From NCBI RefSeq assembly GCF_057098645.1, contig NZ_CM169472.1: a stretch of 64,000 nucleotides of DNA; one strand, given 5' to 3'. Positions 1 through 6,000 of this stretch are shown piece after piece; positions within the stretch are counted from its first letter, which is position 1; every line of letters begins with the position of its first letter. Position numbers: made by a program.

Positions 1-3000
1 CCGAAGGCTCCAGCGGCCAGGTTTCCAGTTTCCTTGATGGCGGTAACCCGTTCCGCTTCTGGCTGCTGGAAATCTTCAACGGCAATATCATCGCCATTGG
101 TCTGGTGCCGGTTATCGCCCTGGTGCTGTATGGCATTTTCCGAATGACGCGGAGCACGGTTTATGCCTGATAACAGCGCAGCTATCGTTATCGATATTGG
201 CACCACCAATTGCAAAGTCACCTGCTTTTCCTGCCTGGACGCAACGACGTTGGGCGCGCATAAATTCGTGACGGCAAAGCAGATCTCCCCACAGGGCGAT
301 GTCGATTTCGATATCGACGCCCTCTGGCAGGAGGTCCGCCAGGCGATAGCGCAACTGAACGCCGCTTCGCCGCTGCCAGTCAGACGGATCAGCATTGCCA
401 GTTTTGGCGAATCAGGCGTGTTCCTTGACGAGCATGGCGAGATCCTGACGCCAATGCTGGCATGGTATGACCGTCGCGGTGAAGAGTATCTGGCAACGCT
501 TAGCGAGGCAGACAGTGCGGCACTTTATGACATCTGCGGTCTACCACTACACAGCAATTACTCTGCCTTCAAAATACGCTGGTTGCTGGAACATTACCCG
601 CTGCGTAATCGCCGCGGCCTGCGCTGGCTACATGCGCCGGAAGTGCTGCTCTGGCGGCTGACTGGCGAACAGCGCACGGATATCACCTTAGCCAGCCGCA
701 CGCTGTGTCTGGACGTGCGCAAAGGCGAATGGTCAGCGAAAGCGGCGGCGTTGTTACACGTTCCCTGTACGGCATTTGCGCCATTGGTGCAGCCAGGCGA
801 GCACGCCGGATGGGTCAGCGAGTCACTTTGCAAGACACTTGGGTTCTCGCAACCGGTCAGCGTGACGCTGGCCGGACATGACCATATGGTGGGTGCGCGA
901 GCGTTGCAGATGATGCCAGGCGATATCCTTAACTCGACGGGGACCACGGAAGGCATTCTGCAACTGGATACACAACCGACGCTGGATGAACAGGCTAAGC
1001 GTGACAAGCTGGCAAACGGCTGTTACTCACTTGCCAACCAGTTCACCCTGTTTGCGTCGCTGCCCGTGGGCGGTTTCGCGCTGGAGTGGCTGCGCAACAC
1101 GTTCCGGCTAACCGATGAGGAGATCGCCGCATCACTTACTCGCGGACATGCTGATTATCTGGCGGGGAATTGGTTGCTCGATGACATTCCCGTCTTTATT
1201 CCACATCTTCGCGGTTCGGGTTCGCCCTATAAAAATCGCCATACCCGTGGATTATTTTATGGGCTTGGCGATACGTTAAGTATCGACATGTTAATTGCCA
1301 GCGTATCACTGGGATTAACCATTGAATTTGCCAACTGCTTCGCCTGTTTTAACGTGCCTGGCACCAGCGCGTTAAAAGTGATCGGTCCGGCAACCCATAA
1401 TCCTCTTTGGCTGCAATTAAAGGCGGATATTTTACAGCGTCCGGTTGAAGCAATTGCATTTAACGAGGCGGTTTCTGTCGGAGCATTATTAACCGCCGCA
1501 CCGGATATTCCACCGCCGCCAGTCGCTATAGCCCAACGTTTGTTACCGAATCGGGCGAGATACCATCAATTACAGCGTTATCAGCACAAATGGAAAAGCT
1601 GGTATCAGTTGAAATTACAACAAGAAGGCGTGATGCCATTACATCATCGGGAGGAACACTATGTTGAATAAAACCGTGGAGGTCAGAAACAGTACTGGCC
1701 TGCATGCACGTCCGGCGGCCTGTCTGGCGAAAGCCGCCAAAAAATATAGCTGTAAAGTGACGCTGCACTATGAGGGTAATGATATTAATGCCACCAGCAT
1801 GATGAATATTATGCGCGCCGGAATAAAAGGCGGAAAAACGGTGGAAATACGCTGCGACGGTGATGATGAAAACGAGGCAATACAGACTCTCACCGACTTA
1901 TTTCGCGACCGCTTCGGTGAAGATGAATAATTAACTGATATTAAAAGATGAGGTTTTCAATATGCCATTAGTTAATGGACGGATACTGCTCGACCGCATT
2001 CAGGAAAAACGGGTATTAGCGGGCGCATTTAATACCACCAATCTGGAGACGACAATTTCAATTTTAAACGCTATTGAGCGTTCGGGATTACCCAACTTCA
2101 TTCAGATTGCGCCAACCAATGCACAACTGTCGGGATACGATTACATATATGAAATCGTGAAACGTCACGCCGATAAAATGGATGTTCCGGTCAGTCTTCA
2201 TCTGGATCACGGGAAAACCCAGGAGGATGTTAAACAGGCGGTGCGCGCGGGCTTTACCTCGGTCATGATTGACGGTGCCGCATTCTCTTTTGAAGAGAAT
2301 ATCGCTTTCACCCAGGAAGCTGTCGATTTCTGTAAATCCTATGGCGTACCGGTTGAAGCGGAGCTGGGGGCGATTCTCGGCAAAGAAGATGATCACGTCA
2401 GCGAAGCCGATTGCAAAACGGAACCGGAAAAGGTGAAGACCTTTGTCGAGCGTACCGGTTGCGACATGCTGGCAGTTTCTATTGGCAACGTTCATGGCCT
2501 GGACGATATACCGCGTATCGATATCCCCCTGCTGAAGCGCATTGCCGAAGTCTGTCCGGTGCCGTTGGTTATTCACGGCGGCTCCGGTATCGCCCCGGAG
2601 ATATTACGCAGCTTTGTTAATTATCGCGTCGCTAAAGTAAATATCGCCAGCGATCTGCGCAAAGCGTTTATCACCGCCGTCGGCAAAGCGTATGTGAATA
2701 ATCACAACGAGGCGAATCTGGCACGAGTCATGGCATCAGCAAAAAACGCCGTTGAGGAAGATGTGTATAGCAAAATCCTGATGATGAATGAGGGGCATCG
2801 GTTGGTTAGAAAGGCATCTTAAGAGCCACAAAAATATAGCGGCGCAACAGAAATTGTTGGGCCGCTATAAGTTATAAATGATTCAAACGCTCATTCAGTG
2901 TTTCAATAATATAGGTATTAACAGAGACTTGTTGCTGCGCAGCCGCATTATTAAGGCGTTCACTCAGCGATTCTGGATAGCGTAACGTAAAGGTCTTAAT

Positions 3001-6000
3001 CTTTTCTGTACGCGCATACGGCTCAATACCCGCAGCTTTACAATCCTCAAGATACTCTCGCAGGGAAAGTTCCCCTTCTTTTTGCAGCCCCTGAATGCTG
3101 TCAGAGACAAAATCACAATAACCTGACAAGCCCAGGAATTTGCCACGAAATGCATTCAGCTCTGGCACGTAAGTGATAACAGCAGGTTGCCCGGCAATCT
3201 CCATAGAGTTTGGCGTCTTCAGTTTGATCATGGTTTTACCCCTATACTTAGTAACCAGTCACGCACGCTTTCTACAGCGCCTTTATCGGTATCTGGCGAC
3301 GGATGAGGCCGATGGAAACACGCAACGCTCATATTTAGTATGAACTTACAACGCGAACCTCTTCCTTCCTTAATTTCTCCGCCTAATGCTTTAACCTGTG
3401 ACTCTATATCAGACCACTTGATCCCTTGAGGAACAGGAGTTTTAAATATTTGATCCAATGTATTTTTTTGTTTCTTCCGTAAAGCCTGTACCTTGGTTCT
3501 CATGGCATGTCCTTATGACTTCACTTTATGACATCAATAGTATGACATCACAGTATGAAGTCAAGTTTCCCTTCCTTACGCCATTGTCCCAATCGTCTTC
3601 CTGAATCGCAGCAGCGCGATGGTGAAAAACGCGCCGCCAATTGCCATCAGCGTCAGGAACTGCGGCCAGACGATTTCGAATCCGGCACCCCGGTAGAGAA
3701 TGGCCTGCGCGAGGCTAACAAAGTGTGTCGTCGGCATGGTCAGCATAATGTCCTGCACCATCTGCGGCATACTTTCGCGCGGCGTGGATCCACCGGAAAG
3801 CATTTGCAGCGGCAGCAGCACCAGAATCACCAGCAGCCCCAGTTGCGGCATTGAACGCGCTATCGTCCCCATAAAAATGCCGATTGACGTGGTGGCAAAC
3901 AGACTGAGCGCCACGCCCAGCATAAACAGCGGGATCGAGCCTTCAATCGGTACGCCCAGCACGCCTTTCACCATCAGCACCAGCGATAATCCCGATACCA
4001 CCAGCACCACCAGCCCCATCGACCAGACCTTAGCCATCATGATCTCAAACGGCGTTATCGGCATCACCAGTAAATGTTCCACTGTGCCGTGTTCACGCTC
4101 GCGGATCAGCGCCGATCCGGTCAATACAATCGCCAGCATGGTAATGTTGTTGATGATCGCCATCACCCCGCCAAACCACGCGGGATCAAGGTTCGGGTTA
4201 AAACGCATCCGGGTTTCCAGCGATACCAACGGTTCGCTGTTATCACGGTAGCGCGCGACAAAGCTGTTCACTTCACCGTTGATAATATTCTGGATATACC
4301 CATTGCCGGTAAATGCCTGGCTCATGCGCGTGGCATCGACGTTCACCTGAATATCCGGCTGGCGTCCGGCGAGGACATCACGCTGAAAATTAGGCGGAAT
4401 ATTTATCGCAAAGGTATAACGCCCGGCGTCCAGTCCGGCATCCATCTCATCGGCGGTGATCATCTCCGGTGGCAAAAACCACGGGCGATAGAAGCTGTTA
4501 ACGATCCGGTTCGATAACTGCGATTGATCCATATCGGCAATGGCGATCGGCGCGAGGTTTAACGATCCTGGCGTCACGGTCGCTGACGAATACACCGACA
4601 CCGTAAACGAGAAGACAATCAATGTCAGCATCGCTTTATCACCGAGTAGACTGCGCAACTCTTTGATACCCAGATTAAAAATATTGCGTAAATGGCGCAT
4701 CATCCCTCCTGTTTTTTCAGCAGCAGGATGCTTAAGCCCATCACCAGCGGGATGGCTATCAGCAACGGGATAAAAAGTTGCCACAAATCAGTCATATCCA
4801 GCGCTTTCGAGAACGTTCCGCGGGCGATAGTCAGAAAATGACTGGTCGGGTAAACCTCGCCGATCCAACGTCCAGGCCCTTCCAGCGAAGCTACCGGATC
4901 GATCATCCCGGAAAACTGTGTCGCCGGGATCAACGTGATAATCGCCGTTCCGAAAATGGCGGCAATCTGGCTTTTCATAAAGGTGGAGATCAGCAGCCCC
5001 ATTCCGGTGGCAATGATGATATACAGCAGCGCCGCCAGGGTGAGCGTCAGGAAACTGCCTTTATGCGGTACGCCAAACACAAACACCGACAAGGCGCAGA
5101 GCAGGAAAAAGTTCAGCATCCCCAGCGCGATGTACGGCAGCTGTTTGCCAAGCAAAAACTCGCTACGGGTGGTGGGAGTCACGTAAAGGTTGATAATCGA
5201 CCCTAGTTCTTTTTCCCGCACCACGCTAAGGGCGCTTAGCATTGACGGGATCATCATCAGCAGAAGCGGGATCACCGCCGGAACAATCGCTGGCAGGCTT
5301 TTTACGTCCGGGTTATAGCGATAGCGCGTCTCAATATTCATCAGCACGCTTTGGCTGGCGGGTGTGGATTGTCGGCTTGCCACATCCTGAAGCCAACTCT
5401 GGTGCATTGCCTGCACGTAACCTTTTACCGTTTCGGCACGACTGGGCATCGCTCCGTCGATCCAGACGCCGAGTTCCACAGGCGTACCACGCGCGATATC
5501 ACGCCCGAAATTTGGAGGGATCTCAATTGCCACCGTGATATCGCCCGCACGCATCCGACGATCAAGCTCGTCATAACTGGTAAGCGGCGGCTGTTCGATA
5601 AAGTAACGGGAACCGGAGAGGTTGAGCGTCCACGCCTGGCTACTGACGGTCTGGTCGCGGTCAAGCACCGCAAAGCGCAGGTTTTCCACATCCATACTGA
5701 TGCCGTAACCCATTATCAGCATCAGGATCACTGTTCCCATCAGCGCCAGCGTCGAACGTACCGGATCGCGTCGCAGTTCCAGCGCTTCGCGGCGGCTGTA
5801 GCTAAACAGACGGCGCAGGCTAAATCCCTGGCGCGGCGCGTGGGTGGTGTCGTGTATCACGGGCGGCGCTTCGGCTTCGTTGCTCTGCCCTGCCGCTTCC
5901 TGCAAATAGGCGATAAATGCCTCTTCCAGACTTGCGGCTCCGCGTTTCTCAACCAGTTCCTGCGGTGTACCGCTGGCGAGCACTTTTCCGGCATGCATCA

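What the first reader, a model, noticed from the sequence alone, without database searches (positions are those of the whole stretch)
2872..3575. hicAB-like toxin-antitoxin pair with a variant toxin motif and operator repeats
Toxin-first order, 4 nt overlap and an RHH-type C-terminus on the second gene fit the hicAB architecture. The toxin is long (91 aa) with a ~28 aa N-terminal extension, and at the position where K-12 HicA has GSNH the sequence reads GSRC, so the catalytic His may be replaced by Cys. The 72 bp upstream region has an inverted repeat (tgacttca / tgaagtca) bracketing two direct tatgacatca copies, a plausible HicB operator. The pair sits at the junction between the sugar module and the conserved yhhJ operon, a typical place for addiction modules at island borders.
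Basis: partly seen in the sequence, partly recalled or inferred. Interest (0 to 1): 0.4.

Follow-up and report, generated by a model that had tools for sequence, protein, structure and literature searches.

The report
HicAB toxin-antitoxin operon, histidine-less clade

Summary
On the minus strand lie hicA (3503..3228, 91 aa) and hicB (3231..2872, 119 aa), overlapping by 4 nt. A 72-bp leader holds four TGAnnTCA(TA) boxes.

Both proteins pass Pfam thresholds (HicA_toxin, HicB). RefSeq annotates them as a HicA/HicB pair in 2,074 of 5,426 complete E. coli genomes. A Klebsiella ortholog is listed as Class 4 hicAB in a published census.

Structure models give a HicA-like fold with a conserved N-terminal helical extension, and a HicB-like domain plus a ribbon-helix-helix.

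The boxes overlap a sigma-70-like promoter. In related genera they are about 430-fold enriched upstream of hicA, so an operator for HicB is well supported.

The His-to-Cys idea is not supported. Profile alignments place the canonical catalytic His opposite Arg51, which is nearly invariant. Position 52 varies (C/V/I). His64 and His67 are conserved.

The pair also occurs without the sugar module, at a hypervariable nikR–yhhJ junction.

Two side observations:
- The window's toxin carries a rare L36Q change, found in 44 genomes.
- About 800 E. coli genomes carry a toxin-null allele with hicB intact.

Verdict: an uncharacterised member of a known family, of low to moderate interest.

The parts
3228..3503 (-). 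hicA: 91-aa HicA-family toxin gene of the GSR / FHRPHP subfamily. It encodes R51 at the canonical catalytic-His slot, C52, H64, H67 and the rare Q36.
   Evidence: ORF. Pfam PF07927 35.5 bits, residues 30-80. RefSeq WP_001259387.1 'HicA family toxin'. AF2 pLDDT 93.6, with helices 2-6, 10-19, 30-39 and 74-86 and strands 43-46, 51-56 and 59-64. hhalign to solved HicAs gives probability 91.5%.
2872..3231 (-). hicB: 119-aa HicB-family antitoxin gene. [quoted passage not shown]
   Evidence: ORF overlapping hicA by 4 nt. Pfam PF05534 56.8 bits. Arc repressor / AmrZ profile matches at E 4e-4. AF2 pLDDT 90.2. Foldseek top hits are HicB 6g26_A, 4p7d_B, 4p78_A, 6u0i_B and 6hpb_B, plus Arc 1b28.
3537..3564 (-). 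Predicted sigma-70 promoter of hicAB: -35 TTGACT (3564..3559), a 16-nt spacer, and -10 TACTAT (3542..3537).
   Evidence: Consensus scan, 9/12 matches. The position relative to the boxes is read from the sequence. Function is inferred and not shown.
3554..3563 (-). Operator box 1, TGACTTCAta on the sense strand. It overlaps the -35 hexamer.
3541..3550 (-). Operator box 2, TGATGTCAta. It lies in the promoter spacer and abuts the -10 hexamer.
   Evidence: This box and the -10 are exactly what the 14-bp deletion removes in the toxin-null E. coli allele.
3527..3536 (-). Operator box 3, TGATGTCAta. It lies immediately downstream of the -10, over the expected transcription start.
3514..3523 (-). Operator box 4, TGAAGTCAta. 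It is the inverted complement of box 1 and abuts the ribosome-binding site AAGGA (3514..3510).
2825..2869 (-). Intrinsic terminator of hicAB. A hairpin at 2869..2835 is followed by a U-rich tract. It lies between the convergent hicB and class II aldolase genes and is probably bidirectional.
   Evidence: RNA fold -21.2 kcal/mol, z-score -5.3, with 0 of 200 shuffles folding as well.

Best explanation
The locus is a chromosomal type II toxin-antitoxin operon of the HicAB family. [quoted passage not shown]

Transcription and regulation (inferred):
- Transcription starts at a sigma-70 promoter in the 72-bp leader after yhhJ.
- It ends at a hairpin terminator just past hicB.
- The two genes are translationally coupled through the ATGA overlap.
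- HicB, dimerised through its RHH domain, binds the four 8-bp palindrome-like boxes (TGAnnTCA, spaced 13-14 bp). These boxes cover the -35, the spacer, the start site and the ribosome-binding site, so HicB represses its own operon.
- The N-terminal HicB domain sequesters HicA.

Toxin action (inferred):
- Free HicA has a dsRBD-like fold plus a basic N-terminal helical extension. It is expected to arrest growth by acting on RNA.
- This subfamily lacks the canonical catalytic His at the start of strand beta2 and has a nearly invariant Arg51 there.
- It conserves His64 and His67. From the hairpin register 51-56/59-64, His64 should be the cross-strand neighbour of residue 51. The chemistry probably uses a rearranged Arg/His site.

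Shown here: gene structure, family and fold assignment, repeat architecture and its phylogenetic conservation, residue conservation.

Inferred only: DNA binding, toxicity, RNase activity and the roles of the catalytic residues.
For: Family and annotation:
- Pfam HicA_toxin and HicB are both above their gathering thresholds.
- RefSeq annotates the pair as a HicA family toxin and HicB family antitoxin.
- The Klebsiella variicola ortholog PIA10432.1/PIA10431.1 is listed as Class 4 hicAB with an RHH HicB in Table S1 of mBio 2024, PMC10865869.

Structure:
- The HicA AF2 model has pLDDT 93.6. HicA structures 6g26_E, 1whz, 6hpb_A and 4c26 are among the best Foldseek hits.
- The HicB AF2 model has pLDDT 90.2. 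HicB structures top its list at probability 1.00, and Arc repressor matches the C-terminus.

Conservation of the pair:
- At least 516 related loci were found in species-representative genomes.
- A hicB-like gene follows with a -4 overlap in 70 of 77 loci examined.
- The family also occurs on 223 plasmid records and 51 phage records.

Operator:
- All four TATGAnnTCA matches in the 64-kb window lie in this 50-bp stretch.
- They overlap TTGACT-16-TACTAT.
- In 18 Enterobacterales/Pasteurellaceae loci, TGACTTCA/TGAAGTCA occurs 38 times in the 1,800 nt upstream of hicA. It occurs 5 times in the other 111 kb.
- The distant clade has GGTACTA-type boxes, also spaced 13 bp.

Terminator.

Residue pattern: G49, S50 and R51 are invariant, H64 and H67 are nearly so, and position 52 is variable. 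R51 aligns with the catalytic His24 of B. pseudomallei HicA.
Against: - No experiment exists on any member of this subfamily in the literature I could search.
- The residue that all studied HicA toxins need for RNase activity and toxicity is absent (PMC11594946, PMC12297915). RNase activity is therefore not a safe transfer from the studied HicAs.
- Foldseek E-values for the small HicA model are weak (0.6-3.6).
- NCBIfam and PADLOC have no model that matches either protein.
- The window's allele has Q36 where 135 of 147 representatives have L and all but one of the rest have M, F or I. This particular toxin may be attenuated.
- No terminator separates yhhJ from hicA except a weak candidate inside yhhJ. 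Read-through from the yhiI-rbbA-yhhJ operon cannot be excluded.
Confidence: 0.8

Rival explanations
1. The pair in this window is decaying. The toxin is attenuated or inactive because of L36Q. HicB persists as an autoregulated DNA-binding protein or as an 'anti-addiction' antitoxin, not as half of a working toxin-antitoxin system.
For: - Q36 replaces a hydrophobic residue of helix alpha1. That position is L in 103/106 close homologs, and L/M/F/I in 146/147 representatives.
- The only other representative with Q36 (P0250) also lacks W30 and H64 and looks degenerate.
- The exact 60-mer containing the Q36 codon occurs in only 44 of 5,426 genomes. O157:H7 PV15-279 and strain AR_0077 have L36.
- Independent toxin loss is common in E. 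coli. 766 genomes carry exactly the allele with a stop at codon 2 plus a 14-bp promoter/operator deletion, and 809 carry it approximately. HicB is the identical protein WP_000593555.1 in the one example inspected (EcPF20).
Against: - The ORF is intact, and all conserved motif residues are present: G49, S50, R51, H64, H67 and K74.
- The promoter and all four boxes are intact.
- AF2 still models the fold with high confidence, although AF2 is insensitive to point mutations.
- A single substitution may be neutral.
Confidence: 0.3
2. HicA proteins of this subfamily are not ribonucleases. Having lost the catalytic His, they inhibit growth by stoichiometric RNA or ribosome binding through the dsRBD-like fold and the basic N-terminal helix, or they have a non-toxic role.
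For: - The canonical His is replaced by Arg in 142/147 representatives.
- In every HicA studied, His-to-Ala at that position abolishes toxicity.
- The N-terminus has a conserved basic motif (R/K-K-K-Q/H-x-x-T-L).
Against: - H64 and H67 are nearly invariant, which is the conservation expected of catalytic residues.
- The tight pairing with a HicB antitoxin, the -4 overlap, and carriage on plasmids and phages all fit a genuinely toxic partner.
- Recurrent toxin-null alleles with hicB retained are the expected outcome if the toxin is harmful.
Confidence: 0.2
3. One reading: Cys52 replaces the catalytic His and acts as the catalytic residue.
For: By direct string comparison, GSRC lines up with GSNH of K-12 HicA, whose His23 is the catalytic residue.
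Against: - Position 52 is C 47 / V 41 / I 16 among 106 close homologs. It is V 104 / I 28 / C 0 among 147 cluster representatives. That pattern is typical of a buried beta-strand position.
- Profile alignments to four solved HicAs place the catalytic His opposite R51.
Confidence: 0.03
4. The pair is an addiction module that belongs to, and stabilises, the adjacent GntR/PTS/kinase/HPr/aldolase sugar island.
For: - In the window and in O145/O157 genomes, hicB is convergent with the last gene of the sugar module, 50 bp away.
- The junction is variable between strains.
Against: - In strain EcPF20, hicAB lies directly between nikR and yhhJ with no sugar module.
- The leader is contiguous with the yhhJ stop codon in all carriers examined.
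- A remnant of the leader survives next to yhhJ where ISAs1 has replaced the genes.
- The pair is therefore linked to the yhhJ side, not to the sugar module.
Confidence: 0.07

Closest known systems
Class 4 hicAB of Gerdes 2024 (mBio 15:e03293-23), e.g. Klebsiella variicola PIA10432.1 (HicA, 91 aa) / PIA10431.1 (HicB, 119 aa)
   Same: It is a direct ortholog: a 91-aa toxin with ...GRGSRCKF...FHRPHPSPDTDKG..., a -4 overlap, and a 119-aa HicB with a C-terminal RHH. A K. variicola protein in my search is 78% identical to the window's toxin.
   Different: None in kind. That census classifies by gene order and by the DNA-binding domain. The paper's main text never mentions histidine or the active site, and no member was tested.
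Burkholderia pseudomallei HicAB (PDB 6G26, 4C26) and Yersinia pestis HicA3B3 (PDB 4P78, 4P7D)
   Same: - hicA-hicB order.
- A HicB with a partial RNase H-like N-domain plus a C-terminal RHH.
- These are the best structural matches for both models.
- The conserved Gly-Ser precedes beta2.
   Different: - Those toxins are about 60-66 aa and depend on His24/His28 immediately after Gly-Ser.
- Here that residue is Arg51.
- There is a conserved extra N-terminal segment of about 28 aa forming two helices.
- The motif after beta3 is F-H-R-P-H-P-S-P-D-T-D-K-G.
E. coli K-12 HicAB (HicA 58 aa, HicB with HTH; PDB 6HPB)
   Same: Same superfamily and toxin-first order. HicB autorepresses through operators in the promoter (PMC10865869).
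   Different: - K-12 HicB uses a helix-turn-helix, not an RHH.
- K-12 HicA has catalytic His23 in G-S-N-H.
- It sits at a different chromosomal locus.
- There is no detectable pairwise sequence similarity by phmmer to PDB chains.
Arc / Mnt / AmrZ ribbon-helix-helix repressors
   Same: The HicB C-terminus aligns with Arc and AmrZ at E about 4e-4 and superposes on Arc (TM 0.70 on the target). Repeated short boxes serve as operators.
   Different: Here the RHH is fused to a toxin-binding HicB domain. The operator consists of four TGAnnTCA boxes at 13-14 bp spacing.

Membership tests
HicA toxin family (Pfam PF07927) | Sequence match to the family profile above the curated threshold | tested here: met
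   35.5 bits against a cut-off of 27, residues 30-80. hhalign to an alignment of five canonical HicAs gives probability 91.5%, E 8e-7.
HicA toxin family (Pfam PF07927) | dsRBD-like alpha1-beta1-beta2-beta3-alpha2 fold | tested here: met
   AF2 pLDDT 93.6, with H30-39, E43-46, E51-56, E59-64 and H74-86. HicA structures 6g26_E, 1whz, 6hpb_A and 4c26 are among the top Foldseek hits (target TM 0.5-0.67), but the E-values are weak.
HicA toxin family (Pfam PF07927) | Conserved Gly in the beta1-beta2 turn (Gly22 of B. pseudomallei HicA) | tested here: met
   G49 is invariant and aligns with Gly22.
HicA toxin family (Pfam PF07927) | Catalytic His at the start of beta2: His24 in B. pseudomallei, His28 in Y. 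pestis, His23 in E. coli K-12 | tested here: not met
   The aligned residue is Arg51, present in 106/106 close homologs and 142/147 representatives. The next residue is C/V/I. Membership therefore holds for the fold and sequence family. It does not hold for the canonical His-dependent active site.
HicA toxin family (Pfam PF07927) | Growth arrest by RNA cleavage, neutralised by HicB | not testable with these tools
   No experimental data were found for this subfamily.
HicB antitoxin family | Pfam HicB (PF05534) match above threshold | tested here: met
   56.8 bits against a cut-off of 21, residues 60-112.
HicB antitoxin family | N-terminal partial RNase H-like (beta-beta-beta-alpha) domain | tested here: met
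   AF2 gives E8-12, E15-22, E27-32, E40-43 and H46-67 at pLDDT 90.2. Foldseek top hits are HicB 6g26_A/B (probability 1.00), 4p7d_B, 4p78_A, 6u0i_B, 6hpb_B and 6g1c_B.
HicB antitoxin family | [quoted passage not shown] | tested here: met
   It is RHH. Arc repressor and AmrZ match at E about 4e-4. There are weak Pfam Arc/CopG hits. Arc 1b28 superposes at rmsd 2.1.
Class 4 hicAB operon (Gerdes 2024) | Bicistronic hicA-then-hicB with closely linked or overlapping genes and an RHH HicB | tested here: met
   A 4-nt overlap here and in 70 of 77 related loci. The ortholog is listed as Class 4.
Autoregulated type II toxin-antitoxin operon | Repeated or palindromic operator sites overlapping the promoter and bound by the antitoxin | tested here: inconclusive
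   The sequence side is met. Four boxes overlap the -35, spacer, start site and RBS. They are about 430-fold enriched upstream of orthologs, and box type changes together with the HicB clade. Binding itself cannot be tested here.

The most novel reading that the evidence does not exclude
The GSR / FHRPHP clade comprises at least 1,000 clusters at 50% identity and is found on chromosomes, plasmids and phages. It may be a mechanistically distinct branch of HicA. The catalytic His would have moved from the start of beta2 to the cross-strand position at the end of beta3 (His64). An invariant Arg51 would fill the old slot. A conserved basic N-terminal helix would add an RNA- or ribosome-binding surface. 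On this reading the toxin is either an RNase with a rebuilt active site and possibly a different target, or a non-catalytic RNA binder.
Probability: 0.35. Interest if true: 0.5.

Novelty: new member of a known kind. Interest (0 to 1): 0.25.

Why it matters
For genome annotation it changes little. The pair is already called HicA/HicB in RefSeq, and its ortholog appears in a published census.

Two points have some value:

- A whole, widespread HicA subfamily lacks the histidine that every studied HicA needs, and conserves Arg51, His64 and His67 instead. 'mRNA interferase' should therefore not be transferred to it without a test. It is also a cheap system for asking how the HicA active site can be rebuilt.

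- E. coli offers a natural allelic series at one locus, suited to testing whether chromosomal toxin-antitoxin pairs are maintained or eroded:
  - intact hicAB with L36;
  - the rare Q36 variant in O145:H28;
  - a toxin-null allele with an intact antitoxin in about 800 genomes;
  - complete absence.

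Tried and rejected
- NCBIfam and PADLOC scans of both proteins found nothing.
- A single-sequence phmmer search of the toxin against the PDB found nothing. Only profile searches reached solved HicAs.
- Foldseek of the small HicA model gave only weak E-values, so the fold assignment rests on the ranking of HicA hits plus the profile alignments.
- Literature searches found no experimental work on this subfamily or this locus. The search terms were catalytic/conserved histidine in HicA, hicAB with O157 or yhhJ, the ExPEC PPECC42 hicAB study, and Piscirickettsia hicAB. 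The gonococcal HicA paper concerns a canonical G22/H24 toxin, not this clade.
- I looked at sequences that deviate at position 51 to see whether they also deviate at 64. That would have been a test of 'His migration'. The exceptions are too few and too mixed to say anything.
- I could not inspect model coordinates, so the R51-H64 proximity is inferred from strand registers only.
- A HicA-HicB complex model was not possible within the structure-prediction cap.
- The His-to-Cys reading and the 'belongs to the sugar island' reading were considered and rejected (see rivals).

Full report
**What is there**

The window is E. coli O145:H28. Bases 2800-3650 are 100% identical to strain RM9872 and other O145 genomes.

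On the minus strand lie two ORFs:
- a 91-aa ORF at 3503..3228;
- a 119-aa ORF at 3231..2872, overlapping the first by 4 nt (ATGA).

The upstream gene is yhhJ, whose stop codon is at 3578..3576. That leaves a 72-bp leader. Downstream, hicB is convergent with a class II aldolase gene.

**Family assignment**

- The 91-aa protein matches Pfam HicA_toxin over residues 30-80, at 35.5 bits against a cut-off of 27.
- The 119-aa protein matches Pfam HicB over residues 60-112, at 56.8 bits against 21, with sub-threshold Arc/CopG RHH hits.
- NCBIfam and PADLOC have no matching model.
- RefSeq annotates the two genes as 'type II toxin-antitoxin system HicA family toxin' (WP_001259387.1) and 'HicB family antitoxin' (WP_000593555.1).
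- Table S1 of Gerdes' 2024 census of HicA contexts (PMC10865869) lists the Klebsiella variicola ortholog as Class 4 hicAB. That entry has a 91-aa toxin with ...GRGSRCKF...FHRPHPSPDTDKG..., a -4 overlap, and a 119-aa RHH HicB.

The identification as hicAB is therefore correct and already on record.

**Structure models**

HicA, modelled with a 48-sequence alignment:
- pLDDT is 93.6.
- Two N-terminal helices (2-6, 10-19) precede alpha1 (30-39), beta1 (43-46), beta2 (51-56), beta3 (59-64) and alpha2 (74-86).
- Solved HicA toxins are among the best Foldseek hits: B. pseudomallei 6G26/4C26, T. thermophilus 1WHZ and E. coli 6HPB. The E-values are weak, as expected for about 60 residues.

HicB:
- pLDDT is 90.2, with four strands and a long helix, then two C-terminal helices.
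- The top Foldseek hits are HicB antitoxins: 6G26_A at probability 1.00, then 4P7D, 4P78_A, 6U0I and 6HPB_B. Arc repressor matches the C-terminus.
- A profile of 39 HicB homologs matches Arc and AmrZ at E about 4e-4.

**The 'variant motif'**

Studied HicA toxins require a His at the start of beta2, directly after a Gly-Ser turn. The known cases are His24 in B. pseudomallei, His28 in Y. pestis, His24 in N. gonorrhoeae and His23 in E. coli K-12 (PMC11594946, PMC12297915). The two B. pseudomallei PDB entries carry Ala at that position (GSAHH).

Alignments:
- HMMER aligns the family profile to PDB 9SVK as rGSHyq / rGSRvr.
- hhalign against five canonical HicAs gives probability 91.5% and E 8e-7. 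It aligns G49-S50-R51-C52 with G22-S23-H24-H25.

Conservation:

| Position | 106 close homologs | Best 147 representatives |
|---|---|---|
| R51 | 106 | 142 |
| 52 | C 47, V 41, I 16 | V 104, I 28, C 0 |
| H64 | 103 | 144 |
| H67 | 104 | 143 |

The 147 representatives are the best hits of a search of 1.84 billion cluster representatives. That search found 1,012 clusters at E <= 1e-10.

So the canonical His is indeed missing, but the replacement is Arg, not Cys. Cys52 is an Enterobacterales-specific occupant of a hydrophobic strand position. The trait belongs to the whole subfamily, not to this locus.

From the hairpin register (51-56 / 59-64, with a two-residue turn), residue 64 should pair across the strands with residue 51. 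I therefore infer that His64 sits next to the old catalytic slot. This is inference; I could not inspect the coordinates.

The roughly 28-aa 'extension' is also a family feature. T15, L16, F20 and P23 are nearly invariant, and a basic R/K-K-K-Q/H motif precedes them. Only the first seven residues are dispensable, since the 84-aa homologs start at position 8.

**The pair elsewhere**

They span Proteobacteria and include some Cyanobacteria, Deferribacteres and Verrucomicrobia.
- In 70 of 77 loci where I could call the toxin ORF, a hicB-like gene follows with the same 4-nt overlap.
- Homologs occur on 223 plasmid records, including 5.7-kb and 12.8-kb plasmids, and on 51 phage records, mostly Ralstonia phages.

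This is the distribution expected of a mobile toxin-antitoxin module.

**The leader**

On the sense strand it reads:

TAA ggaagggaaac TTGACT tca tactg TGATGTCA TACTAT TGATGTCA taaag TGAAGTCA t AAGGA catgcc ATG

- A consensus scan finds -35 TTGACT (3564..3559), a 16-nt spacer and -10 TACTAT (3542..3537).
- Four boxes TGAnnTCA-TA start 13/14/13 bp apart.
- They are the only four TATGAnnTCA matches in the 64-kb window.
- Box 1 overlaps the -35. Box 2 fills the spacer. Box 3 covers the expected start site. Box 4 abuts the ribosome-binding site.
- The outer boxes are exact inverted complements of each other, and the inner two are identical.

The decisive evidence is comparative:
- In 18 loci from other Enterobacterales and Pasteurellaceae, TGACTTCA/TGAAGTCA occurs 38 times in the 1,800 nt just upstream of hicA. 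It occurs 5 times in the remaining 111 kb, an enrichment of about 430-fold. The boxes usually come as two pairs spaced 13 bp apart.
- In the distant 84-aa clade, whose HicB RHH sequence differs, the leader instead carries two GGTACTA/GATACCA-type boxes. These are again 13 bp apart in 27 of 31 spacings.

Box sequence therefore changes with the antitoxin clade while the geometry is kept. That is what an operator for HicB predicts. Binding itself remains untested.

A strong hairpin lies at 2869..2835 (-21.2 kcal/mol, z-score -5.3), followed by a U-rich tract. It ends the operon directly after hicB.

**Genomic setting**

The pair is present in 2,074 of 5,426 complete E. coli genomes. It is always chromosomal and almost always single-copy.

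The nikR-yhhJ junction differs between strains:
- O145/O157: a GntR-PTS-kinase-HPr-aldolase module lies between nikR and hicB.
- EcPF20: hicAB lies directly between nikR and yhhJ.
- K-12: rhsB-yhhH-yrhC'-yhhI (an ISAs1-type element) occupies the site, with no trace of the leader.
- BS-04: an ISAs1 element abuts a 58-bp remnant of the leader.

So the pair is anchored to the yhhJ side of a hypervariable junction. It is not part of the sugar module.

**Allelic states (seen in passing)**

- The window's toxin differs from that of O157:H7 PV15-279 only by Q36 instead of L36.
- The 60-mer containing the Q36 codon is exact in 44 genomes. It has one mismatch in 1,230.
- Position 36 is L/M/F/I in 146 of 147 representatives.
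- A second allele is exact in 766 genomes and approximate in 809. It has a stop at codon 2 (ATG TAA). It also has a 14-bp deletion (TGATGTCATACTAT) that removes box 2 and the predicted -10.
- In the example inspected (EcPF20), HicB is the identical protein WP_000593555.1.
- RefSeq still calls a 76-aa 'HicA family toxin' there, from an internal non-ATG start.

These observations suggest the toxin is under erosion in E. coli while the antitoxin is retained. That makes the window's Q36 allele a candidate attenuated toxin. This is a hypothesis, not a result.

**Verdict**

- The hicAB and operator interpretations are supported.
- The His-to-Cys interpretation is not supported: the canonical slot holds Arg51, and Cys52 is variable.
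- The island-border interpretation is only loosely supported.

The locus is an uncharacterised member of a known, already annotated family. Its modest interest lies in the subfamily-wide loss of the canonical catalytic His and in the natural allelic series in E. coli.

Noticed in passing
window 3396-3398 (codon 36 of hicA, minus strand): The window's HicA has Gln36. O157:H7 and other E. coli have Leu, and 146 of 147 family representatives have L/M/F/I. The exact 60-mer with this codon occurs in only 44 of 5,426 complete E. coli genomes: the O145:H28 strains plus O157:H7 TR01. It may be an attenuating substitution.
   Followed up: partly
L082 (E. coli EcPF20) 3357-3690; corresponds to window 3228-3575: A widespread toxin-null allele is exact in 766 genomes and similar in 809. 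It has a stop at codon 2 (ATG TAA) plus a 14-bp deletion removing one operator box and the predicted -10. In EcPF20, hicB encodes the identical protein. The 5' half of hicA is about 10% diverged, mostly at synonymous sites, and the 3' half is identical. That suggests recombination followed by recent inactivation.
   Followed up: partly
L082 about 3590-3640 (minus strand): In the null allele, the same substitution that creates the TAA opens an out-of-frame 33-codon ORF. It starts at an ATG 5 nt upstream and runs through an A7 tract (AAACAAAAAAACA). A -1 slip there would restore the HicA frame. This is pure speculation and was not analysed.
   Followed up: no
L082 3357-3587: In the null allele, RefSeq annotates a 76-aa 'HicA family toxin' (WP_042014162.1). 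It starts at an internal Leu codon and lacks the conserved basic N-terminal motif. This is probably an annotation artefact of a pseudogene.
   Followed up: partly
L083 (E. coli BS-04) 5001-5058; L086 (K-12) 13516-13680: The nikR-yhhJ junction is hypervariable. K-12 has rhsB-yhhH-yrhC'-yhhI there with no leader remnant. BS-04 has a frameshifted ISAs1 transposase abutting a 58-bp remnant of the hicA operator region.
   Followed up: partly
L014 (Serratia silvae) 3001-3633: hicA and hicB are fused into one 210-aa ORF, with no stop and an altered junction. This is either a natural HicA-HicB fusion, like Gerdes' Class 11, or an assembly error.
   Followed up: no
L008 (Photorhabdus heterorhabditis) 3001-3276; L012 (Pectobacterium sp.) 2974-3249: Other lineages also have damaged 5' ends of hicA. 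L008 has a stop at codon 4 with a possible restart at Met8. L012 has no in-frame start.
   Followed up: partly
homolog list (P0052, P0055, P0058, P0078): Several homologs of this HicA in Pectobacterium, Leminorella and E. coli carry the source name 'hexulose-6-phosphate synthase'. This is evidently a propagated misannotation.
   Followed up: no
window 3576-4784 (minus strand): The mechanical ORF for yhhJ is 402 aa from a GTG start and overlaps rbbA. RefSeq annotates 374 aa (1,125 nt). No strong terminator separates yhhJ from hicA, so read-through from the yhiI-rbbA-yhhJ operon into hicAB is possible.
   Followed up: no
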